From IMG/VR virus record IMGVR_UViG_2562617151_000005: 23,946 nucleotides of DNA. One strand, written 5' to 3'. Below, in pieces: positions 8,183 through 23,179 of this stretch. This DNA is from a virus (taxonomy: Duplodnaviria > Heunggongvirae > Uroviricota > Caudoviricetes). Both the position numbers and the translations under genes were made by a program. The notes under the pieces were generated by a model, which was given only the letters and a program-made list of their open reading frames with translations, searched no databases and had not been told where the DNA came from. Position 1 is the stretch's first letter. Each line of letters starts with the position of its first letter.

Positions 8183-8326
8183 GTGTTAATTTCTGGTCAT
8201 GAGGTAATTTTCAGGAGGGCTTGTGGCAAAAGTTTTTACACAAGAAGAGCGGGAAAAAATTAAAGGGCAGGTTGTTGAACTCGTACGCCAGAGTGGGCGC
8301 GAGACGTTACGACAACTGGAAACTAA

Positions 8327-9522
<1,196 letters not shown>

Positions 9523-10036
9523 CTAATACTGGGGCAACAAGATATCTGATGAGCGTTCTGGCCAGAGAGCTGGTTGCCAGTGGCGATGTATACAACTCTG
9601 GTTACGGGTTATTCCCGTCTGAACAGGCGCGTAAGGACTGGCAAAATGCCCGTAAAAAGCTCTCAAGGGCAAAGCTGAAGAAACCATCTGCGGTTGATCC
9701 GGACCTTATCTGGTCATTACCTGACGGAGAAATACGTCGCTACGACAGGCGTCAGAACATAATCTGTCGCGAGTGCCGGAAGAGTGAAGTTATGCAGCGC
9801 ATATTGTCGTTTTATCAGGGTGATGTTCGGTATTTATTGAAGTGACGAGATTAAAGTGCATTAGTTCAGATGCAAATTGACATTTTGTGGCACAGGGTAG
9901 AGCTAGCGTGGTTGTCCGCTTTGTGCCAATAGCGGACATTGCTGGCTCATGGTATGTTAGTTTAAGGAGGCAGGTTATGCCCTGTATTTCGCTGTGGTAT
10001 AATAGTTGCGCAATTGATACAAGGGAGCGTTACATC

Positions 10037-10999
10037 GTGAAAATTGTTTTCGAGGTTAATGGAAAGAAAGTTCCACTAAAATCTTTAAAATACATAAGCA
10101 AAAAAGATCAACTCGAAGTAATGAAAAACTGGTTCTTTGAAAACTTTGAAGATCCGGCAAATGCTTGTCCGTATGAAAGTAGAGAAGGTGGCTATGCTTA
10201 CATATATGGCGGGCCGTATGATGCGAGCGAAGAACTACAATCCATCTTCGGTCAATATGTTAAATCTGAGTATATTGAGGAATTAGTAGATGAATTACAA
10301 ACACAATGTTTTGACTGGTCTGGAAACTCAAATAATATAGATGATTGGTACGATGATGATATCTACGACGCTGTAACGTCTTCCGGTAATCCGTATTTAA
10401 AATTCATTGATAATATCGATAAAATAAAAAAACTTGCAAAAGATAAAACTGAACAACAGCAAAAAAACCACTTGCTTAGTTTGCTCTACACGAATGTTAT
10501 TACAGCTTTGGAAACGCTTTATGTTGAGCTATTCATTAATTCTATAGAGAAAGATGATGTCTACATAGCCAATTGTATAGAAAAAGGTAAGACTGAATTT
10601 AAAGTAAGCAAAGATATTGCTGCGTTGCCTTTCAAGGGTGAACCCATCGAGAAAATTAGGGGAGAGCTAATCAGGTCAATCAAGGAACACTTGATCAGTG
10701 CAAGCTGGCATAGCACTAAAAAGGTAATCGACCGCTATGAAGCTACATTCGATATAAAAGTACAAAAAGACTGTCCGATAGAAGCTATTGAATTGGCAAC
10801 CCTCAATCGAAATCACTTAGTGCATCGTGGTGGAAAGGATAAAGAAGGGAACCTCGTAGTGATTACAGACCAGGATCTTGAAACGCTGATTGAAAATGCA
10901 TCGAACCTGGCAATTATGCTCTACAACAGTTTAAATGTAGCAACGAATAAAACCACCATTTTGCAACCAGATGACAAACCGTTCATTCATGAATTTTAA
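10037..10999 (+). CDS. Hypothetical protein A of AT-rich cassette (about 320 aa) with C-terminal HEPN-like Rx4H motif
   Basis: Long ORF; proposed GTG start at 10037 preceded by AGGGA; TTGACA at 9878-9883 upstream; motif LNRNHLVHRGG near C-terminus; markedly AT-rich by eye. Confidence 0.6.
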   Translation: MKIVFEVNGKKVPLKSLKYISKKDQLEVMKNWFFENFEDPANACPYESREGGYAYIYGGPYDASEELQSIFGQYVKSEYIEELVDELQTQCFDWSGNSNNIDDWYDDDIYDAVTSSGNPYLKFIDNIDKIKKLAKDKTEQQQKNHLLSLLYTNVITALETLYVELFINSIEKDDVYIANCIEKGKTEFKVSKDIAALPFKGEPIEKIRGELIRSIKEHLISASWHSTKKVIDRYEATFDIKVQKDCPIEAIELATLNRNHLVHRGGKDKEGNLVVITDQDLETLIENASNLAIMLYNSLNVATNKTTILQPDDKPFIHEF

Positions 11000-11014
11000 T
11001 AGCGCAGGTCATAC

Positions 11015-12016
11015 ATGGATATTCGCACACGAAAGACAAAATTTTTAGAGTCGTTAGATTCAACTGAAGTGATACGCAAAGCAGTAAGTCTCGCTATAGA
11101 TTGCATTATTGATAATCATAATAGTAATGAAGATACCCCCTTAGTTATTACCAGCTATGATGATCTCTGTAGAATCCAGGTGCTAAATTATGTACAGGAG
11201 TTTTGCGAAGCTGCATTCCCTGATATGGATGAATATTACTTTAGTCCTAACATACTTCGCATCAACGGCAAGACTAGTGAAGAAGCTTGTATTAACTTAA
11301 TTAAACTCTTAAGAAGTACAAAAGGCATGCTATTCTGGTCCGATGCCCCATCGTGGTTCGCTAGCCTCCCCGACGGATTATTCCATGTTGTTAACATTGA
11401 TCAAAAAATCGTTACTCGCGGCCTTAATAAGAAAAACTCTAAGCCGACAATAATCAATAAAGATTACAGTGTAGATACACTACTATCAGAGCTATTTTTG
11501 AATGGCGCACACATGGAGCAACCCAACGTACACAACGTTTCTGAGGGAAACATGAAGTTCTATGATGAATGCCATGCTGGATTAATCAGACCAATACCCG
11601 CTCCAATAGGCGCGTCATACGATGAAGAGATCACAATTAATTCTCCAGATTGGCAAAAGCTCGCGTGTGTAGCTTTACGCCGCTATCAGTCGAAGGAATG
11701 TCATGACGGAATGCAATGGGATACAACCGATCATGGTTGGACTGATGTAATCGCGTATCCATTCGTCGAAGAAATACAATCAATGGATAATAGTGGTTAT
11801 CGACAATGTTTAGTTGGGCTGGTCACAATAAACAATTCAAATGCAAATTCTCCGTACCTATCTACCGTTTGGATACATCTATTTTATCGCAGGAGAGGGT
11901 TATTAAGTAAGTTATGGCCAAAATTACAAGAGTTATATGGAAGTAACTTCGAAATTGAGCGACCTAATGAAAATATGAAAGCATTTCTGAAAAGTGCGAA
12001 ACACGCAGATTACTAA
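11015..12016 (+). CDS. Hypothetical protein B of AT-rich cassette (333 aa)
   Basis: ORF 15 nt downstream of gene A on the same strand; AT-rich; no Walker A or other recognisable motif. Confidence 0.6.
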   Translation: MDIRTRKTKFLESLDSTEVIRKAVSLAIDCIIDNHNSNEDTPLVITSYDDLCRIQVLNYVQEFCEAAFPDMDEYYFSPNILRINGKTSEEACINLIKLLRSTKGMLFWSDAPSWFASLPDGLFHVVNIDQKIVTRGLNKKNSKPTIINKDYSVDTLLSELFLNGAHMEQPNVHNVSEGNMKFYDECHAGLIRPIPAPIGASYDEEITINSPDWQKLACVALRRYQSKECHDGMQWDTTDHGWTDVIAYPFVEEIQSMDNSGYRQCLVGLVTINNSNANSPYLSTVWIHLFYRRRGLLSKLWPKLQELYGSNFEIERPNENMKAFLKSAKHADY

Positions 12017-16064: not shown

Positions 16065-17114
16065 ATGCTTAATACTGTAAAAATATCCAGTTGTGAGTTA
16101 ATCAACGCCGACTGCCTGGAATTTATCCGGTCGTTACCCGAAAATTCTGTTGACCTGATAGTCACGGACCCGCCGTACTTTAAAGTGAAGCCTGAGGGCT
16201 GGGATAACCAGTGGAAGGGCGACGATGATTACCTGAAGTGGCTGGACCAGTGTCTGGCGCAGTTCTGGCGGGTGCTGAAACCTGCCGGAAGTCTTTACCT
16301 GTTCTGTGGTCATCGCCTGGCATCTGATATCGAAATCATGATGCGTGAACGCTTCAGTGTGCTGAACCATATTATCTGGGCGAAGCCGTCCGGACGCTGG
16401 AACGGATGCAACAAGGAAAGCCTGCGGGCGTATTTCCCCGCCACAGAGCGCATTCTGTTCGCGGAACATTATCAGGGGCCGTATCGTCCGAAAGATGCCG
16501 GGTATGCGGCGAAGGGCAGTGCACTGAAACAGCATGTGATGGCCCCGCTGATTTCTTACTTTCGTGATGCGCGCGCGGCCCTGGGGATAACGGCAAAACA
16601 GATTGCAGATGCCACAGGAAAGAAAAACATGGTGTCGCACTGGTTCAGTGCCAGTCAGTGGCAGCTACCGAACGAAAGCGATTATCTGAAATTACAGTCG
16701 CTGTTTGCCCGGGTGGCAGAAGAGAAACATCAGCGCGGTGAACTGGAAAAGCCCCACCACCAGCTGGTGGATACGTATACGTCACTGAACCGGCAGTATG
16801 TGGAGCTGCAGAGTGAATATAAGCATCTGCGGCGGTATTTTGGTGTGACGGCGCAGGTGCCGTACACGGATGTGTGGACACATAAACCGGTGCAGTTCTA
16901 TCCCGGGAAACATCCGTGCGAAAAACCGGCAGAAATGCTGCAGCAGATAATCAGCGCAAGCAGTCGTCCGGGTGACCTGGTTGCAGATTTTTTTATGGGC
17001 TCAGGTTCAACGGTAAAAGCGGCACTGGCGCTCGGGCGTCGTGCGATTGGCGTTGAACTGGAGACCGGACGTTTTGAGCAGACAGTCAGGGAAGTTCAGG
17101 ATTTAATCGTTTGA
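16065..17114 (+). CDS. Orphan DNA N6-adenine (or N4-cytosine) methyltransferase, beta-class
   Basis: 349 aa; catalytic DPPY (VTDPPYF) near N-terminus and SAM-binding FxGxG (DFFMGSGST) near C-terminus; no adjacent endonuclease gene. Confidence 0.85.
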   Translation: MLNTVKISSCELINADCLEFIRSLPENSVDLIVTDPPYFKVKPEGWDNQWKGDDDYLKWLDQCLAQFWRVLKPAGSLYLFCGHRLASDIEIMMRERFSVLNHIIWAKPSGRWNGCNKESLRAYFPATERILFAEHYQGPYRPKDAGYAAKGSALKQHVMAPLISYFRDARAALGITAKQIADATGKKNMVSHWFSASQWQLPNESDYLKLQSLFARVAEEKHQRGELEKPHHQLVDTYTSLNRQYVELQSEYKHLRRYFGVTAQVPYTDVWTHKPVQFYPGKHPCEKPAEMLQQIISASSRPGDLVADFFMGSGSTVKAALALGRRAIGVELETGRFEQTVREVQDLIV

Positions 17115-17163: not shown

Positions 17164-17239
17164 GGCCCTTTAGCTCAGTGGTGAGAGCGAGCGACTCATA
17201 ATCGCCAGGTCGCTGGTTCAAATCCAGCAAGGGCCACCA
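17164..17239 (+). tRNA. tRNA with CAU anticodon, Ile2-like (ileX/ileZ type) rather than Met
   Basis: Hand-folded cloverleaf: acceptor GGCCCTT/AAGGGCC, D-stem GCTC/GAGC, anticodon loop CTCATAA, T-loop TTCAAAT, encoded CCA; resembles E. coli ileX from memory. Confidence 0.8.
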
Positions 17240-17246
17240 TCACATA

Positions 17247-17323
17247 CCGCCATTAGCTCATCAGGAAAGAGCGCCAGCCTTCGAAGCTGGTTGCGCGGAG
17301 TTCGGGTCCCCGAAGGCGGTCCA
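17247..17323 (+). tRNA. tRNA-Arg (UCG) with atypical T-arm
   Basis: Hand-fold: acceptor CCGCCAT/AAGGCGG (one A-A mismatch), D-stem GCTC/GAGC, anticodon stem CCAGC/GCTGG, loop CTTCGAA, T-loop TTCGGGT with one T-stem mismatch, encoded CCA. Confidence 0.55.
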
Positions 17324-17336
17324 TTATCTGTATCCT

Positions 17337-17413
17337 GCGTTGTTAGCTCAGCCGGACAGAGCAATTGCCTTCTAAGCAATCGGTCACTGGTTCGAATCCA
17401 GTACAACGCGCCA
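17337..17413 (+). tRNA. tRNA-Arg (UCU)
   Basis: Acceptor GCGTTGT/ACAACGC, D-stem GCTC/GAGC, anticodon loop CTTCTAA, T-loop TTCGAAT, encoded CCA. Confidence 0.85.
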
Positions 17414-17458: not shown

Positions 17459-17672
17459 CTCACAATTCAGGCGGTTGACTGTTGTCTGGTTTGCGGGGAG
17501 TTTGTTAAAAGAAACTGGCATGGTGAATCCCCCTGTGCGGAGGGGCAATCAGCGAGTAGGTATATGGGATAATCGCGGATTCAGGTGCTGGTACTGAATT
17601 CACCGGGAGGCACCCGGCACCATGCAATGGCACATAGCGCCACTCTCCAGCCCCTCTCCGGAGGGGCTTTTC
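17459..17672 (+). other. Structured module A (about 215 bp), candidate sRNA or regulatory leader ending in an intrinsic terminator
   Basis: Shares blocks with module B: CTCACAATTCAG, TTGAC, TTTGTTAAAA, CATGGTGAATCCCCCTGNGCGGAGGGGC, CACCGGGAGGCACCCGGCACCATG, and terminator GCCCCTC-TCCG-GAGGGGC plus T-run. Confidence 0.4.
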
Positions 17673-17926
17673 TGTGCCGGATACATCACAGTTTCTGGAA
17701 CCTTAGGTACTACAGTATCAGTCAGGGTGCTATATTTTCAGATGTGATGAAAGCCTGTCAGCAGGCAGGGCGTATCGGAAATGACCCAGTAGAGAAAACG
17801 TTGACTCAGATACCGGTGCTGAGTTACCGGGAAACCGGCATCACATGACCGCTATCCTTCCAGGCCCATCCGCTCCGGTGGGCCTTTTTACTGCAGAAAA
17901 CAGGTTCCCCGTTAAATGCTATGTTG

Positions 17927-18160
17927 CTCACAATTCAGTAAGTTGACAGTTGCCTGTCAGACTGGGCATTTGTTAAAAAAATTTCGCATGGTGAATCCCC
18001 CTGAGCGGAGGGGCGACTGGTGACGGTATAATCTCTGATTATCAAAACGAGAATGACGCGGGTTTAGTGGCACCGGGCTGAACTCACCGGGAGGCACCCG
18101 GCACCATGTGCATGATGATACAGATACGCGGCTTTAGCCCCTCTCCGGAGGGGCTTTCTT
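17927..18160 (+). other. Structured module B, paralogue of module A with a TTGACA -35-like hexamer
   Basis: Same conserved blocks in the same order as module A; identical terminator hairpin at 18137-18154 followed by T-rich tract. Confidence 0.4.
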
Positions 18161-18166
18161 ATGGAC

Positions 18167-18388: not shown

Positions 18389-19423
18389 ATGGCATTTAAA
18401 CACTATGACGTGGTCAGGGCGGCATCGCCGTCAGACCTTGCGAAACGACTGACACAAAAACTGAAGGAGGGCTGGCAGCCGTTTGGTAGTCCGGTGGCCA
18501 TAACCCCTTATACCCTGATGCAGGCGATTGCAGCAGAAGGTGATGTGGTCGTCAGTGGTGCAACTGAGCCGGAGTGGTACTACGTCATCGTACTGGCCGG
18601 GCAATCCAATGCCATGGCTTACGGTGAAGGGCTTCCGCTTCCGGATTCATACGATGCGCCCCATCCGCGCATTAAGCAACTGGCCCGTCGTAACACAGTG
18701 ACTCCCGGTGGTGAAGTATGCGTATTTAACGACATCATTCCTGCTGACCATTGTCTGCATGATGTTCAGGATATGAGTACGATTAACCATCCCCGGGCTG
18801 ACCTGAGCAAAGGGCAGTACGGCTGTGTCGGACAGGGCTTACATATTGCCAAAAAACTGCTTCCGTATATCCCTAATAATGCGGGGATCCTGCTGGTACC
18901 ATGCTGTCGTGGTGGTTCGGCATTCACCCAGGGCACGGAGGGGACATTCAGCGAGTCCACGGGAGCCAGTCAGGATTCGGCTCGCTGGGGAGTGGGTAAG
19001 CCGTTATATCAGGATCTGCTTTTCCGCACGAAGGCAGCATTGCAGAAAAACCCGAAAAACGTTTTGCTGGCGATATGCTGGATGCAGGGGGAATTCGATA
19101 TGACGAATGCCAGTTACGCCCAGCAGCCAGCAGCATTTCTTGCAATGGTACAGCAGTTCCGTGCTGACCTTGCCGGGCTGGCAGCGCAGTGTCACGGTGG
19201 AAGTCCGGCATCAGTCCCCTGGATTTGTGGCGACACGACATACGCGTGGAAACAAGAACACGGTACGCAATATGAAGTGGTATATGGTGCATATAAAGGT
19301 AAAGAATCCCAGCAGATTTATTTTGTTCCCTTTATGACCGATGGTAGCGGAGTTAATACACCGACAAACAACCCGTCAGAAGATCCTGATACCTGCAGGA
19401 GTACATCAGGACGCAGTGCTTAA
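18389..19423 (+). CDS. nanS: NanS-like 9-O-acetyl sialate esterase (SGNH hydrolase) of the prophage nanS-p type
   Basis: 344 aa; SD GGGAGG upstream; GQSN motif (VLAGQSNAMAYGEG) typical of SGNH/SASA esterases; N-terminus MAFKHYDVVRAASP... resembles YjhS/NanS from memory. Confidence 0.75.
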   Translation: MAFKHYDVVRAASPSDLAKRLTQKLKEGWQPFGSPVAITPYTLMQAIAAEGDVVVSGATEPEWYYVIVLAGQSNAMAYGEGLPLPDSYDAPHPRIKQLARRNTVTPGGEVCVFNDIIPADHCLHDVQDMSTINHPRADLSKGQYGCVGQGLHIAKKLLPYIPNNAGILLVPCCRGGSAFTQGTEGTFSESTGASQDSARWGVGKPLYQDLLFRTKAALQKNPKNVLLAICWMQGEFDMTNASYAQQPAAFLAMVQQFRADLAGLAAQCHGGSPASVPWICGDTTYAWKQEHGTQYEVVYGAYKGKESQQIYFVPFMTDGSGVNTPTNNPSEDPDTCRSTSGRSA

Positions 19424-19468
19424 AATAATTTTAATTTCACTGAAATTTAATACGTGACTTTCAGGAAA

Positions 19469-19494
19469 ATGCCTCGCAGATGCGGGGCATTTTT
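19469..19494 (+). terminator. Intrinsic terminator downstream of nanS-like gene
   Basis: ATGCCTCGCA-GA-TGCGGGGCAT (one mismatch) followed by TTTT. Confidence 0.5.
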
Positions 19495-19844
19495 GTACAG
19501 GTATTTCACCGCGCACCGCAGTGCACTCAACCACGTCGAACCAAACCCTTTGGAATGAGCCTTTGAGTAGTCAGTTAGTGCTGGTGAGCCTTGACGGGCT
19601 GATCTCCTATGCAGCAAAGGTTCATCTCAAAGTAAGGCGAACGCTATGACAAACCAAGATTCTATAGACCTATCTGATCTTCGTGGAATGGTCAGTTTTC
19701 CAGACAAAAGGTAATCACCATAGTCGTATGGCTATGAATCTTGTTGCTGCAGATAAGCATTTTGTGATTGAAGTGGTCAAATCTCTCAAATGCAGTAAAA
19801 TGCAGTGCGCTATAATTCAATAACGGAGGGAGTAAGGAGAAGTC

Positions 19845-20465
19845 ATGAAAGATCAAGATGTTAGGTTCGCGGTGCATCATAAGCTTTTGAAAGAATCGCA
19901 TTTAGATCCAGACTGCCTTGTGGTCGATGAATTTTCCATATCCCTTGGCGCCAGTAGAGCAGACATTGCTGTAATAAATGGTGTTATACACGGGTACGAG
20001 CTCAAAAGTGAATATGACTCTTTGGAGCGTTTGCCTCTTCAAATCAAGCATTATTCTTCTGTAATGGACAAGGTTACTCTTGTCGTAGCTGAGAAACATC
20101 TTGAGGGAGCATTAAAGTTAATCCCAGGTTGGTGGGGCGTTAAAACGGTTTCTGTTGGGCCAAAAGGCGCCATTCTTATAAAGCACATGCGTGGAGAAAA
20201 GCTTAATCGAAACCATGACACATTGATGCTCGCTCAATTGCTTTGGAAAGATGAATGTATCGACGTACTTGAACGATGGGGCTATTCCAAAGGAATCAAA
20301 AGCAAGCCCCGATTTGAGTTATGGAATATTATTGCGGAAAATATTCCAATAGCGAATCTCAGGCTTGAAGTCAGAACAGCCTTAAAGAAACGCGTAGGCT
20401 GGAAAGTTAAGGCTTGGCAGGCTGAGTCTGCGCCAACCAATAAAGCTGTCTCACGACTAACGTAA
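19845..20465 (+). CDS. Hypothetical protein (206 aa) with PD-(D/E)xK nuclease-like motif
   Basis: SD AAGGAG and TATAAT-like -10 upstream; motif ...RADIAVINGVIHGYELKSE... with D-x11-ELK spacing typical of restriction-endonuclease-fold enzymes; AT-rich. Confidence 0.6.
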   Translation: MKDQDVRFAVHHKLLKESHLDPDCLVVDEFSISLGASRADIAVINGVIHGYELKSEYDSLERLPLQIKHYSSVMDKVTLVVAEKHLEGALKLIPGWWGVKTVSVGPKGAILIKHMRGEKLNRNHDTLMLAQLLWKDECIDVLERWGYSKGIKSKPRFELWNIIAENIPIANLRLEVRTALKKRVGWKVKAWQAESAPTNKAVSRLT

Positions 20466-21474
20466 TATGGTGCGTATGTGCAACTTTACGCCATTCTTTA
20501 GAGCCGCCAGATTTGTTAGCGCCTAATGATCTTTGGTAAATGTAATCATCCCCCCAACTAAATTTGGAACCAAAGACTTGATACTCTGGCGAACTAACAA
20601 GGGTAGTACATAAGTTTTTAGTTTGGCCCCATCCATTTCCTTTAACTGCGGTACCTTTTACAAAGATCCATGAGGTATCGTTCGAATATCTCACTGAGAC
20701 ATACTGAGACATGAAGCGTGGGTCTACGCTCGTAATGGTAGAGCTAGCGGTGGGATAATCACTAAAACTTGGCGTTCTTCCATTGCTAAAATTCTGTACT
20801 ACGTACATCCAAAGATCGTATTCATGGCGCGGAATATGATGAACTTGATGTTGCGGTATCCCTGCCTGTGATGCTGGGTATGCGGTTGAAGATAAAATCA
20901 AGTTTCTCCACGGAGCTTGGCCTGATAATGTGTTGACCATGCTTAATGCTTGTTGTTTTAAACTATCAGTTGCGTTTTGAATATCTCCAAAATCAATGAT
21001 TACATCAATTAAACTAGGATGAATATTTAAGTGGTTAACCAGACTTGTGAATTGGTGCCATGTCTGGGGGGTGATAGATATAGCGAGCCCATTGATTAAG
21101 TTGCGTTGAACAGCATGTATATAGTTTGTTGAATATGCGGGAGAAACAACAGGGATAATTTCCTTACCATTTACTCTAGCATCTTGGATACACATATCTA
21201 GAGGATGATGGCGGCTCGAACCATGTTTATCTAAATATTTAACATCCAGCAAAACAGGACGATTGGCTTTCCAGGATGCCGCAAGGTTAATACCGAAGTC
21301 AGATAAGTAAGAACTCAAACTCTTCTTGTAGCATTCGTTTTCATAATCCCAGTCTATGTCTGGAATGGTAATGATCGGAGTAAAACCAGAGAGCGTAGTT
21401 TGATCTAAAAGCATCAGAGATTCATATTCAGCAGGCTTCCATTTCAGCTGTGGATAATATTGATGTTGACTCAT
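20407..21474 (-). CDS. Hypothetical protein (355 aa), convergent partner of the nuclease-like gene
   Basis: Long AT-rich ORF; 3' end overlaps 19845-20465 by 59 nt on the opposite strand; no family recognised. Confidence 0.6.
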   Translation of the reverse strand: MSQHQYYPQLKWKPAEYESLMLLDQTTLSGFTPIITIPDIDWDYENECYKKSLSSYLSDFGINLAASWKANRPVLLDVKYLDKHGSSRHHPLDMCIQDARVNGKEIIPVVSPAYSTNYIHAVQRNLINGLAISITPQTWHQFTSLVNHLNIHPSLIDVIIDFGDIQNATDSLKQQALSMVNTLSGQAPWRNLILSSTAYPASQAGIPQHQVHHIPRHEYDLWMYVVQNFSNGRTPSFSDYPTASSTITSVDPRFMSQYVSVRYSNDTSWIFVKGTAVKGNGWGQTKNLCTTLVSSPEYQVFGSKFSWGDDYIYQRSLGANKSGGSKEWRKVAHTHHITLVVRQLYWLAQTQPAKP

Positions 21475-21697
21475 TAAAACTCCTTAAAATCTTTACTTAT
21501 CCTAAGTATAGTGTTATGGCGTAACGCCAATTGTTTTTATACACTTGAAAACATTGGGAAAAGTTGAGCTATATCTAAATTTACAAAATTGGATGTTATA
21601 GAAATCGAGGTTTCAACTAGGCATGGAACTGCAAAATTTTTAATGCCTGCACGCGAAAGTCGTTGGCGGGTCCTTTCCGGTGATCCAGACCGTTACG

Positions 21698-21709
21698 GGG
21701 CGGCGACCT
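21698..21709 (+). other. cosN, lambda-type 12-nt cohesive end GGGCGGCGACCT with flanking cos sequence
   Basis: CGTTACG|GGGCGGCGACCT|CGCGG followed by TTTTTCACTATTTATGAAAATTTTT, near-identical to the lambda genome left end as I recall it; about 180 bp upstream of Nu1. Confidence 0.7.
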
Positions 21710-21885
21710 CGCGGTTTTTCACTATTTATGAAAATTTTTCAGGGAAAATCGTGTCGGTACTTCTCGAATATAACTTTTTGTTTTTTTTAATATTACATCC
21801 GTAAAGGTCCGACATGAAAGTGTCCGAAAATGCCTTTTTCTGGCGTTTTCATGTCGGGCCTTGTATTTGATAATGGGTTGTTTTC

Positions 21886-22434
21886 ATGAAGGTTAATAAA
21901 AAGAGGCTTGCCGAAATTTTCAACGTGGACCCGCGGACGATTGAACGCTGGCAGTCTCAGGGACTCCCTTGCGCCTCCAAAGGTAGTAAGGGCATTGAAT
22001 CTGTATTTGATACTGCCATGGCAATTCAGTGGTATGCGCAGAGGGAAACTGATATCGAAAACGAAAAGCTCCGCAAAGAACTGGACGATTTGCGTGCGGC
22101 AGCGGAGTCAGATTTACAACCCGGCACCATTGACTATGAACGCTACCGGCTCACAAAAGCGCAGGCAGATGCGCAGGAACTGAAAAATGCCCGTGAAGAC
22201 GGAGTAGTGCTGGAAACTGAACTGTTTACCTTCATTCTGCAACGTGTGGCACAGGAGATTTCGGGGATACTTGTGCGTGTGCCGTTGACATTACAGCGTA
22301 AATATCCGGACATTTCACCATCACACCTTGATGTGGTGAAAACTGAAATCGCGAAAGCCTCCAATGTTGCAGCTAAGGCCGGTGAAAACGTGGGCGGGTG
22401 GATCGATGATTTCAGACGCGCAGAAGGCAGCTAA
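21886..22434 (+). CDS. nu1: Terminase small subunit (lambda Nu1-like)
   Basis: 182 aa [28 protein letters not shown]...[47 protein letters not shown], closely parallel to lambda Nu1. Confidence 0.85.
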
Positions 22435-23179
22435 TGCAGCCGGTGCGATAGCTACAGGGCTTTTATCTCTCATTATTCCTGTTCCACTGACGACAGTTCA
22501 GTGGGCCAATAAACATTATTACCTTCCTAAAGAGTCGTCTTATACCCCCGGGCGGTGGGAAACACTGCCGTTTCAGGTTGGCATCATGAACTGTATGGGC
22601 AACGATCTGATTCGCACGGTTATGCGTGGCTGGACGATTAAGGGCAAGCCCGCCAGTGGTCGGGCCGTATTATCTCAGGAACAGGACGGCATTAAATCGC
22701 ACACCCACAGCGCCAGCGCATCCAGTACGGATTTGGGGACGAAAACCACATCGTCGTTTGATTACGGAACCAAATCCACGAATAACACCGGGGCGCATAC
22801 CCATAGTATTAGCGGGACCGCAAATAGTGCCGGTGCGCACCAACACAAGAGTTCCGGTGCATTTGGTGGCACGAACACGAGCATTTTCCCTAATGGTTAT
22901 ACCGCGATTTCAAATCTAAGCGCGGGGATTATGAGCACAACAAGCGGTAGTGGCCAGACTCGTAATGCAGGGAAGACATCATCAGATGGTGCTCATACCC
23001 ACTCGCTGTCCGGCACTGCTGCAAGCGCAGGCGCACATGCACATACTGTCGGTATTGGTGCTCATACGCACTCCGTTGCGATTGGTTCACATGGACACAC
23101 CATCACCGTTAACGCTGCTGGTAACGCGGAAAACACCGTCAAAAACATCGCATTTAACTATATTGTGAGGCTTGCATAA
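22406..23179 (+). pseudogene. Chimeric ORF: terminase large subunit (gpA-like) N-terminal 70-odd aa fused to a side-tail-fibre C-terminal His-rich repeat region
   Basis: From MISDAQ the N-terminus matches lambda gpA ([41 protein letters not shown]) up to about nt 22620, then switches to GAHTHS/GAHQH repeats; same frame throughout; start overlaps Nu1 end as in lambda. Confidence 0.6.

What the first reader, a model, noticed from the sequence alone, without database searches (positions are those of the whole stretch)
19845..21474. Convergent AT-rich gene pair with PD-(D/E)xK-like nuclease motif occupying the lysis/bor-equivalent locus next to cos
In lambda the interval between Q and cos holds S, R, Rz and the bor moron. 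Here that interval holds no recognisable holin, endolysin or spanin; it holds two AT-rich genes arranged tail-to-tail with a 59-nt 3' overlap. The 206-aa protein has a restriction-endonuclease-fold motif (ADIAV...ELK). The 355-aa partner is unassigned. Its own SD and TATAAT-like element, plus a terminator at 19469-19494 insulating it from nanS, suggest independent expression. This is a plausible nuclease-based defence or exclusion module.
Basis: partly seen in the sequence, partly recalled or inferred. Interest (0 to 1): 0.75.

Follow-up and report, generated by a model that had tools for sequence, protein, structure and literature searches.

The report
Minimal beta–cII nuclease defence module
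The two tail-to-tail genes are a self-contained 1.8-kb cargo module of a decayed lambda-like prophage, pairing a restriction-type nuclease with a TIM-barrel "Beta" protein; the same pair is shared by two proven anti-phage systems but here lacks their toxin genes, so it is a likely, still untested, phage-defence module.

Summary
ORFs 19845-20465(+) and 20407-21474(-) converge with a 59-nt 3' overlap, are AT-rich (GC 0.41 vs 0.48) and lie 224 bp from cosN.

Neither protein is an orphan. The 206-aa protein belongs to the sce7726/Phage_P4_cII family. It models as a PD-(D/E)xK nuclease, and E29, D40 and E52-x-K54 are conserved in at least 75 of 76 relatives. The 355-aa partner is a Pfam Beta_protein and models as a TIM barrel.

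These are the beta and cII genes of the P4 gop-beta-cII system. Beta is also component C of PD-lambda-2. Both systems are experimentally validated, but no gop, HigB or Xre-peptidase gene is present here.

Anchoring on either gene found the partner convergent next door: 77 of 80 genome loci and 41 of 41 viral loci. Nearly all pairs overlap, always in the same relative frame, and the conserved C-termini are dual-coded at a fixed 37-nt register in 69 of 80 pairs.

The pair does not replace the lysis genes. A 2.87-kb deletion removed them, and intact relatives read Rz-[pair]-cos.

Verdict: a new, toxin-less variant of a known defence family. Its mechanism is unknown and its defence function untested.

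The parts
19465..19494 (+). Intrinsic-terminator-like hairpin: A-tract, 13-bp stem, T-tract. It marks the left flank of the cargo slot and follows Rz in intact relatives.
   Evidence: RNA fold dG -23.5 kcal/mol, z -4.3. Its position relative to Rz comes from the L001 comparison.
19753..19844 (+). Conserved 5' control region of the nuclease gene. It holds TGGTCA (19774-79), a 16-nt spacer and TAAAAT (19796-801); tandem 10-mers AAATGCAGTA/AAATGCAGTG (19788-19807); TATAAT (19812-17); and SD AAGGAG (19834-39).
   Evidence: DNA homology to the Edwardsiella, Klebsiella, Pantoea and Pectobacterium copies starts at about 19753-19788. The block is nearly invariant in the 5-genus alignment. The 10-mer occurs exactly only here in the window. 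Promoter function is inferred, not shown.
19845..20465 (+). sce7726 / Phage_P4_cII family gene, 206 aa. It encodes an N-terminal PD-(D/E)xK nuclease domain (E29, D40, E52-x-K54, Q66) and a C-terminal helical domain that may bind DNA. Residues 192-206 are a disordered lineage-specific tail.
20407..20465 (.). Dual-coding 3' overlap of the two genes, 59 nt. It encodes nuclease residues 188-206 and Beta residues 337-355.
   Evidence: The family-wide overlap always equals 2 mod 3. The stop-loss extension is shown.
20407..21474 (-). Beta_protein (PF14350) gene, 355 aa. The product is a predicted (beta/alpha)8 TIM barrel with a C-terminal helical extension. Conserved polar residues are E16, D161, D239 and H336.
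21475..21578 (-). Conserved 5' region of Beta. It holds SD AAGGAG (21480-85 on the + strand), a -10-like TATAAA (21536-41) and the conserved block TTAGATATAGCTCAA (21564-78).
   Evidence: 5-genus alignment. Sequence. Promoter function is inferred.
21698..21709 (+). lambda-type cosN, given as context. Beta starts 224 bp away, so the order cos-beta><cII matches P4 (cos-gop-beta><cII).
   Evidence: Exact GGGCGGCGACCT match. P4 map.
19390..19391 (.). Deletion junction, given as context. 2.87 kb were lost here: the nanS 3' part, holin, ydfR, lysozyme and most of Rz. This created the nanS fusion ORF 18389-19423.
   Evidence: blastn of the window against L001. Annotation of L001 and L088.

Best explanation
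Window 19753-21578 is an autonomous, horizontally mobile cargo module (a 'moron') in the Rz-cos slot of a decayed lambda-like prophage. It encodes the minimal two-gene 'beta-cII' pair.

One gene encodes a PD-(D/E)xK nuclease of the sce7726/Phage_P4_cII family. The other encodes a TIM-barrel Beta protein. The same convergent pair is embedded in the P4 gop-beta-cII system and in PD-lambda-2-type loci, where an extra toxin-type cassette is transcribed with beta: gop in P4, HigB plus Xre-peptidase in PD-lambda-2.

Most likely the lysogen expresses the pair from its own two facing promoters, and the pair protects the host against superinfecting phages. I infer that the nuclease is the effector that cuts DNA once activated. 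I infer that Beta, probably a metal- or ligand-binding enzyme-like protein, senses infection or controls the nuclease. I also infer that the obligatory 3' overlap couples the two genes' inheritance, and possibly their expression through convergent transcription and complementary 3' ends.

Shown: gene structure, family membership, folds, conserved catalytic residues, strict linkage and overlap, mobility, and prophage, satellite and defence-island contexts.

Inferred: the defence function of the toxin-less form, the assignment of roles to the two proteins, and antisense coupling.

For: 2. Validated relatives. gop-beta-cII protects against lambda and P1 (PMC9122126). A phage gene, orf184, triggers it to kill the cell (bioRxiv 10.1101/2023.04.06.535777). 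[quoted passage not shown]

3. Linkage. 77 of 80 genome loci anchored on the nuclease carry a convergent Beta gene. They come from Proteobacteria, Firmicutes, Myxococcota, CPR, Melainabacteria, Acidobacteriota and Bacteroidota. Two of the three exceptions end at a contig edge and the third was not examined. 41 of 41 viral loci anchored on Beta carry the nuclease. Temperate Gordonia and Mycobacterium phages and Rac-SA53 show the same geometry.

4. Overlap. 77 of 80 pairs overlap, always by a length equal to 2 mod 3. The conserved codons R183 (nuclease) and H336 (Beta) lie exactly 37 nt apart in 69 of 80 pairs. The nuclease W-R codons lie opposite the Beta Q-L-A codons.

5. No third gene. No gop homologue was found in the window or the first 84 loci. 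There is no minus-strand ORF of 40 aa or more between Beta and cos. Clustering of neighbours finds no other conserved partner.

6. Mobility. Copies at 74-76% DNA identity sit in unrelated flanks in Edwardsiella, Klebsiella, Pantoea and Pectobacterium, with sharp homology limits and conserved promoter-like blocks. The allele occurs in 127 of 5426 complete E. coli genomes.

7. Context. Neighbours include phage and mobile-element genes and scattered defence genes such as dCTPase, dGTPase, BrxH, DrmD, PbeA, HmaA and PDC-S11. Another clade sits in P4-like islands beside an alpha-type primase.
Against: No experiment addresses the two-gene form. Defence is transferred by homology at only 22-27% identity to the P4 proteins.

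In both validated systems the demonstrated toxic component is something else: gop in P4 and the Xre-peptidase in PD-lambda-2. The role of the cII-type nuclease has never been tested.

The PD-lambda-2 clone extended only 396 bp past gene C. If a convergent nuclease gene exists in ECOR42, it was 5'-truncated in that clone, which would mean defence did not need it there. This is my inference, not checked on the ECOR42 sequence.

Beta is interrupted by IS5 or IS1 in several strains while the nuclease ORF stays intact. The nuclease is therefore not strongly toxic on its own at native expression.

The promoter scan is not above chance, and no RNA structure signal exists in the overlap.
Confidence: 0.6

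Rival explanations
1. The pair is a plain toxin-antitoxin (addiction) pair. The nuclease is a constitutively dangerous toxin and Beta its antidote. Their job is to stabilise the prophage or island, not to stop phages.
For: P4 beta neutralises the gop toxin (Ghisotti 1990, as cited in PMC9122126). Vassallo et al. describe Beta as related to a 'P4 phage antitoxin'. The tight two-gene linkage on mobile elements fits this reading.
Against: Natural knock-outs argue against it. IS5 interrupts Beta in strain 100416. IS1 interrupts it in NMBU-W12E19, and an IS1 also lies within the pair in 1532MA/WA. In both loci examined (100416 and NMBU-W12E19) the nuclease ORF is intact. It carries the same allele (WP_000654791.1) that pairs with intact Beta elsewhere. 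In PD-lambda-2 the Beta homologue is not needed to neutralise the toxin. Beta has a large, conserved, enzyme-like TIM barrel, unlike typical antitoxins.
Confidence: 0.12
2. The pair is a restriction-modification-like system. Beta is a TIM-barrel enzyme that modifies DNA or a nucleotide to mark self. The nuclease cuts unmarked incoming DNA.
Confidence: 0.08
3. The pair serves the phage's own life cycle. Possible roles are a lysogeny regulator, as the name cII suggests, or a DNA-processing or recombination nuclease used during lytic growth near cos. It is not host defence.
For: The nuclease gene runs in the same direction as the late operon, so Q-antiterminated transcription would read it. More distant solo homologues of the nuclease occur in about 290 lytic Staphylococcus, Bacillus and Lactobacillus phages. 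The module lies next to cos in both lambda-like prophages and P4.
Against: The pair is kept intact in a prophage that has lost its lysis, head and tail genes. It occurs on chromosomal islands and next to non-phage genes in many phyla, including CPR. It is absent from most lambdoid prophages: only 2.3% of E. coli genomes carry it. The P4 genes are non-essential.
Confidence: 0.12
4. The two ORFs are degenerate remnants of lysis or structural genes, or chance ORFs.
For: None found.
Against: Both proteins give full-length, highly significant family matches. Both AF2 models are confident. Thousands of homologues exist: 4355 Beta cluster representatives. Conserved catalytic residues are retained. 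The true lysis genes are identified elsewhere in intact relatives.
Confidence: 0.01

Closest known systems
P4 gop-beta-cII anti-phage system (Ghisotti 1990; Rousset 2022, PMC9122126)
   Same: It has homologous Beta (22% identity; same Pfam PF14350) and homologous cII/sce7726 nuclease (27% identity; same catalytic residues). Beta and cII converge. Both lie directly next to cos on a mobile element, in the order cos-beta><cII.
   Different: There is no gop gene here or in any of the first 84 loci searched. P4 beta and cII are separated by a 27-nt terminator-bearing gap instead of overlapping. P4 cII is 264 aa with a longer C-terminus. The window's Beta scores better against PD-Lambda-2_C models than against the P4 'beta' model.
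PD-lambda-2 (Vassallo 2022, PMC9519451)
   Same: Component C is a Beta_protein homologue (PADLOC 4e-32). Loci with the PD-lambda-2 A/B genes also carry the convergent cII-type nuclease: L040 scores A 1e-40, B 2e-150, C 3e-40 and cll 2e-22. 14 members of the 126-ORF neighbour set (nearest flanking ORFs of 66 non-redundant loci) match PD-lambda-2_B.
   Different: The window has no HigB-like A and no Xre-HTH/M78-peptidase B. PD-lambda-2 as published is a three-gene system that does not include the nuclease. HigB plus ImmA/IrrE also occur on plasmids without Beta or cII, so the two halves are separable modules.
PD-(D/E)xK nucleases of the MmcB-like type (PDB 3dnx SPO1766) and the nuclease domains of Can2, NucS and type II restriction enzymes
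   Same: They share the alpha-beta-beta-beta-alpha-beta core and the E...D...ExK...Q catalytic signature.
Lambda bor/lom-type 'morons' (independently expressed cargo genes inside the late operon)
   Same: It has the same slot between Rz and cos, a terminator on the left flank, promoter-like elements of its own, and lower GC than the surrounding phage genome.
   Different: It has no sequence relation to bor. It comprises two convergent genes rather than one, and its predicted role is anti-phage rather than serum resistance.

Membership tests
P4 gop-beta-cII system | Beta_protein (PF14350) homologue present | tested here: met
   Pfam E 8e-56, full length. PADLOC 'beta' 3.5e-10. blastp against P4 beta gives 22% identity, E 3e-7.
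P4 gop-beta-cII system | cII (Phage_P4_cII / sce7726) homologue present | tested here: met
   NCBIfam NF033832 2e-54. PADLOC 'cll' 4e-31. 27% identity to P4 cII, E 1e-18. Relatives carry PF26915 Phage_P4_cII.
P4 gop-beta-cII system | gop toxin gene upstream of and co-transcribed with beta | tested here: not met
   tblastn with P4 gop finds nothing in the window or the first 84 loci. There is no minus-strand ORF of 40 aa or more between Beta (21474) and Nu1 (21886).
P4 gop-beta-cII system | beta and cII transcribed convergently | tested here: met
   P4 map. Window ORFs.
P4 gop-beta-cII system | Protects cells against phage (lambda, P1), or kills the cell when a phage trigger is expressed | not testable with these tools
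   This needs plaque and toxicity assays. The only data are for the P4 and ECOR59 three-gene loci.
PD-lambda-2 | HigB-like component A | tested here: not met
   No such ORF lies next to Beta. In contrast, L040 has A at 1e-40.
PD-lambda-2 | Xre-HTH plus M78/IrrE peptidase component B (the toxic component) | tested here: not met
   No ORF lies between Beta and cos. In contrast, B is present next to the pair in 14 members of the neighbour set.
PD-lambda-2 | Component C (Beta-like) | tested here: met
   PDLC03984 4.4e-32 and PDLC03983 2.2e-25.
PD-(D/E)xK nuclease superfamily | Core alpha-beta-beta-beta-alpha-beta fold | tested here: met
PD-(D/E)xK nuclease superfamily | Catalytic D...(D/E)xK residues conserved | tested here: met
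   E52, K54 and Q66 are conserved in 76 of 76 non-redundant members, and E29 and D40 in 75 of 76.
PD-(D/E)xK nuclease superfamily | Metal-dependent nucleic-acid cleavage | not testable with these tools
   A biochemical assay is required.
TIM-barrel (beta/alpha)8 fold (Beta protein) | Eight-fold beta/alpha barrel | tested here: met
Type II toxin-antitoxin pair | Antitoxin indispensable while the toxin gene is intact | tested here: not met
   Beta is disrupted by IS5 (L085) and IS1 (L086) with the nuclease ORF intact, carrying an allele also found with intact Beta. Caveat: expression levels are unknown.
Lambda lysis cassette / bor | Homology to holin, endolysin, spanin or Bor | tested here: not met
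   Pfam, NCBIfam and PHROGs give only Beta_protein, sce7726 or unknown-function families. The real lysis genes lie upstream in intact relatives and are deleted here.
Phage 'moron' (autonomous cargo module) | Discrete insert with its own expression signals, deviant composition, and presence or absence among related phages | tested here: met
   GC is 0.414 against 0.477. Homology limits are sharp, with unrelated flanks in four genera. Promoter-like blocks are conserved at both ends. A terminator lies on the left flank. The module is present in only 127 of 5426 E. coli genomes. Promoter activity itself was not tested.

The most novel reading that the evidence does not exclude
The beta><cII pair may be an ancient, self-sufficient two-gene immune core found from Proteobacteria to CPR bacteria and actinophages. 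Under this reading its dual-coded, convergently overlapping 3' ends are functional rather than incidental. They would act as an antisense-coupled switch that sets the nuclease:Beta ratio when phage infection or prophage late transcription perturbs transcription. gop-beta-cII and PD-lambda-2 would then be derived forms that bolt a toxin cassette onto this core. The conserved nuclease, which the published PD-lambda-2 definition omits, would be the shared effector.
Probability: 0.2. Interest if true: 0.7.

Novelty: new variant of a known kind. Interest (0 to 1): 0.5.

Why it matters
Two validated E. coli defence systems, gop-beta-cII and PD-lambda-2, have no known mechanism. In both, the shared Beta and cII components are the least understood parts.

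This locus shows that Beta plus the cII nuclease form a separable, widely distributed module that usually travels without any added toxin. Beta alone has about 4,400 cluster representatives at 50% identity. The module would probably escape detection rules that expect gop or HigB/peptidase. I did not check those rules.

The toxin-less form is the simplest genetic system in which to ask what Beta (a new TIM-barrel family) and the nuclease do. The analysis also suggests that PD-lambda-2-type loci have a fourth, overlooked gene.

The fixed-register dual coding of both C-termini across phyla is an unusually clean example of a long-lived convergent gene overlap. It offers a testable link between gene architecture and regulation.

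Tried and rejected
- gop or another third gene: tblastn with P4 gop and all-vs-all clustering of flanking ORFs found nothing conserved except the PD-lambda-2 A/B genes in a minority of loci.
- RNA element in the overlap: folding either strand gives z-scores of +0.7 and -0.3, and Rfam has no match inside the finding. I rejected a structured RNA or terminator between the genes.
- Solved relatives of the nuclease by sequence: only chance-level hits.
- Literature: no paper mentions PF14350. The 'sce7726' hits are annotation mentions only. Ghisotti 1990 (PMC249035) is not held, so statements about P4 gop/beta rest on citations.
- Promoter calls: the sigma-70 consensus scan is not above chance. I rely on cross-genus conservation instead and label promoter function as inferred.
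Only the cloned coordinates were available.
- 'The pair replaces the lysis cassette': rejected after comparison with L001 and L088.
Full report
OBSERVATION

One is 19845-20465(+), 206 aa. The other is 20407-21474(-), 355 aa. They converge and share 59 nt. The pair has GC 0.414 against 0.477 for the window.

Each gene has a strong Shine-Dalgarno sequence. The hairpin at 19465-19494 is a convincing intrinsic terminator: 13-bp stem, dG -23.5 kcal/mol, z -4.3. The lambda cosN sequence GGGCGGCGACCT is at 21698-21709, 224 bp from the start of the 355-aa gene.

CONTEXT

The window is a decayed lambda-like prophage of E. coli.
- Upstream it carries an integrase, a RecE-like exonuclease, replication genes, an orphan DNA methylase, tRNAs and nanS.
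- Downstream it carries Nu1, then a terminase-A N-terminus fused to a tail-fibre gene, then tfa.

The best match is strain B-1109 (locus L001), which is 100% identical over 19400-21900. There the order is nanS-holin-YdfR-lysozyme-small ORF-Rz-[pair]-Nu1. An apparently complete prophage in O111:H21 strain 15A reads Q-methylase-tRNAs-esterase-holin-YdfR-lysozyme-Rz-[pair]-Nu1-A-W-portal.

blastn of the window against L001 shows a 2.87-kb deletion with junction at 19390/19391. It removed the 3' part of nanS, the holin, ydfR, the lysozyme and most of Rz.

So the pair does not replace the lysis cassette. It occupies the cargo slot between Rz and cos, where lambda carries bor.

WHAT THE PROTEINS ARE

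The 206-aa protein:
- It matches NCBIfam NF033832 'sce7726 family' (2e-54) and the PADLOC model 'cll' (4e-31).
- Its relatives carry Pfam PF26915, 'Phage_P4_cII'.
- It is 27% identical to P4 cII.
- An AlphaFold2 model built on 37 homologues has pLDDT 90.
E52, K54 and Q66 are conserved in 76 of 76 non-redundant relatives including P4 cII, and E29 and D40 in 75 of 76.

The 355-aa protein:
- It is a full-length Pfam PF14350 Beta_protein (8e-56).
- It matches PADLOC PD-Lambda-2_C (4e-32) and P4 'beta' (3.5e-10).
- It is 22% identical to P4 beta.
- Its model (pLDDT 94.4, pTM 0.92) is a (beta/alpha)8 TIM barrel with a helical C-terminal extension.
- No solved structure matches by sequence.
- E16, D161, D239, W328 and H336 are conserved across the family including P4, which looks more like an enzyme or ligand-binding site than a passive antidote.
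- The family is large: 4355 cluster representatives at 50% identity. The 150 best hits are nearly all stand-alone proteins of 350-370 aa.

RefSeq already labels both genes as 'sce7726 family protein' and 'beta family protein'. PHROGs lists both as unknown function.

RELATION TO KNOWN SYSTEMS

In P4 the map is cos, gop(+), beta(+), then cII(-). Beta and cII therefore converge there too, next to cos.
- gop-beta-cII protects against lambda and P1. gop is toxic without beta (PMC9122126).
- A phage accessory gene, orf184, triggers cell death through gop-beta-cII (bioRxiv 10.1101/2023.04.06.535777).

PD-lambda-2 has three published components: HigB-like A, a toxic Xre-peptidase B and Beta-like C. 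C is needed for defence but not for neutralising the toxin (PMC9519451).

The window has neither gop nor A/B:
- tblastn with gop finds nothing.
- No minus-strand ORF of 40 aa or more lies between Beta and Nu1.

LINKAGE AND ARCHITECTURE ACROSS GENOMES

A scan of species-representative genomes with the nuclease profile returned 80 loci. They come from Proteobacteria, Firmicutes, Myxococcota, CPR phyla, Melainabacteria, Acidobacteriota, Bacteroidota and others.
- 77 of the 80 have a Beta gene immediately downstream and convergent.
- Two of the three exceptions end at a contig edge, and the third was not examined.

The reverse test anchored on Beta in viral contigs. All 41 loci carry the convergent nuclease, although most are copies of the E. 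coli allele. Rac-SA53, two Gordonia phages and a Mycobacterium phage show the same geometry.

The overlap itself is conserved:
- Of 80 convergent pairs, 77 overlap by 11-158 nt (median 54.5).
- Every overlap length equals 2 mod 3.
- The conserved Arg codon of the nuclease (R183) and the conserved His codon of Beta (H336) are exactly 37 nt apart in 69 of 80 pairs.
- The nuclease R-x-x-W-R codons are read on the other strand as Beta Q-L-A-x-L.

The overlap is therefore an ancient dual-coding segment that has been kept continuously, not a local accident.

The window's clade has a 39-nt in-frame expansion, giving a distance of 76 nt. In E. coli a TAG->TGG stop loss lengthened the nuclease by 16 disordered residues. 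That raised the overlap from 11 to 59 nt.

THIRD GENES AND MODULARITY

Clustering of flanking ORFs finds only one recurrent partner. HigB-like and Xre/M78-peptidase genes lie upstream of and co-directional with Beta in 11-12 loci.
- In the neighbour set (126 nearest flanking ORFs from 66 non-redundant loci), 14 match PADLOC PD-Lambda-2_B.
- In L040 all four proteins score: A 1e-40, B 2e-150, C 3e-40 and cll 2e-22.

PD-lambda-2-type loci thus contain a fourth, convergent nuclease gene that the published definition does not include. The published clone extended only 396 bp beyond gene C. That would truncate such a gene if ECOR42 has one. This is my inference and is unverified.

Conversely, HigB plus ImmA/IrrE occur on plasmids without Beta or cII. 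The picture is a separable beta><cII module to which a TA-like cassette is sometimes attached. In the loci sampled the two-gene form is the commonest.

MOBILITY

The E. coli allele is at least 99% identical in 127 of 5426 complete genomes, always chromosomal.

Copies at 74-76% DNA identity exist in Edwardsiella, Klebsiella, Pantoea and Pectobacterium. They share homology only over window 19753-21487 by blastn. Their flanks are unrelated: an IS integrase, a phage HNH gene, DUF1176 and a glyoxalase gene.

Alignment extends the conserved part to promoter-like blocks at both ends.
- On the nuclease side: TGGTCA, 16 nt, TAAAAT; a tandem 10-mer AAATGCAGTA/AAATGCAGTG; then TATAAT.
- On the Beta side: TTAGATATAGCTCAA and a TATAAA box.

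Another enterobacterial clade sits in P4-like islands next to an alpha-type primase, AlpA and a transglycosylase, again without gop. Other neighbours include single instances of many defence genes and phage or mobile-element genes.

NATURAL GENETICS

Beta is split by IS5 in strain 100416 and by IS1 in NMBU-W12E19. An IS1 also lies within the pair in 1532MA/WA. In the two loci examined, the nuclease ORF is intact. Its allele (L174P, WP_000654791.1) also pairs with intact Beta in strain 15A. Beta is therefore not an indispensable antidote to the nuclease at native expression. This argues against a simple TA pair and against a restriction-modification logic.

MECHANISM

Best supported (about 0.6): a prophage-borne anti-phage module in which the PD-(D/E)xK nuclease is the effector and Beta senses or controls it.

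Shown: identities, folds, conserved active-site residues, obligatory linkage, mobility and context.

Inferred: the defence activity of the toxin-less form, the division of labour between the two proteins, and any regulatory role of convergent overlapping transcription. No RNA structure signal was found in the overlap.

In an intact prophage the nuclease gene runs with the late operon and Beta runs against it. Late transcription would therefore favour the nuclease, which is a testable prediction.

Rivals:
- Plain addiction module, 0.12.
- A role in the phage's own life cycle, 0.12.
- Restriction-modification-like system, 0.08.
- Gene remnants, about 0.

NOVELTY AND SCORE

The proteins belong to named families, and their three-gene relatives are validated defence systems. 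This is not a new kind of system. The toxin-less two-gene form is untested, and I found no paper treating it as a system.

New here:
- The two-gene pair is the commonest form among the loci sampled.
- It is a fixed-register dual-coding convergent pair across phyla.
- Beta is a TIM barrel.
- PD-lambda-2-type loci carry the nuclease as well.

I rate it 'new variant of a known kind', with interest 0.5.

Noticed in passing
window 9887-12016: This is a second AT-rich (GC 0.34-0.41), co-directional gene pair after the replication genes. The 370-aa product has only a sub-threshold HEPN/RES N-terminal domain hit (E 2e-4). The 333-aa product has no Pfam or PADLOC match. It is another unassigned cargo block and a possible defence candidate.
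   Followed up: partly
window 19390/19391 and about 22304-22621: Two large deletions mark this prophage as defective. One fuses nanS to the 3' end of Rz, with 2.87 kb lost. The other fuses the terminase-A N-terminus to a tail-fibre gene, with the head and tail genes lost. Strain DLI.5a (L087) has a different, smaller deletion at the first site.
   Followed up: partly
window 8323-9525: An IS5 copy, 95% identical to the IS5 that interrupts Beta in strain 100416, is inserted among the early and replication genes.
   Followed up: no
window 17164-17410, 17489-17679 and 17957-18166: Three tRNA genes and two copies of the sRNA family STnc100 (Rfam RF02076, 136 and 165 bits) lie between the orphan DNA methylase (16065-17114) and nanS.
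   Followed up: no
window 19788-19807: An exact tandem 10-mer, AAATGCAGTA/AAATGCAGTG, overlaps the -35/-10 region upstream of the nuclease gene. It is nearly invariant in Edwardsiella, Klebsiella, Pantoea and Pectobacterium copies that are otherwise about 75% identical. It looks like an operator for an unknown regulator.
   Followed up: partly
L040 5001-8122, and loci L048, L056, L060, L063, L065, L073, L075, L077-L081: Loci with the PD-lambda-2 A, B and C genes always had a fourth, convergent cII/sce7726 nuclease gene overlapping the end of C. The published three-gene definition and clone (only 396 bp past C) appear to leave it out.
   Followed up: partly
L085 (strain 100416) and L086 (NMBU-W12E19): Independent IS5 and IS1 insertions lie inside Beta while the nuclease ORF is intact. 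They are natural knock-outs showing that loss of Beta is tolerated.
   Followed up: yes
phage collection hits: About 290 lytic Staphylococcus, Bacillus and Lactobacillus phages encode a more distant solo homologue of the nuclease (E about 1e-4 to 1e-16), and no Beta gene was detected in any of them. Its role there is unknown.
   Followed up: no
window 21589-21804: A 71-aa TTG-start ORF spans cosN and matches PHROG 11159 (unknown function, E 7e-12). It is probably conserved cos-region sequence rather than a gene.
   Followed up: no
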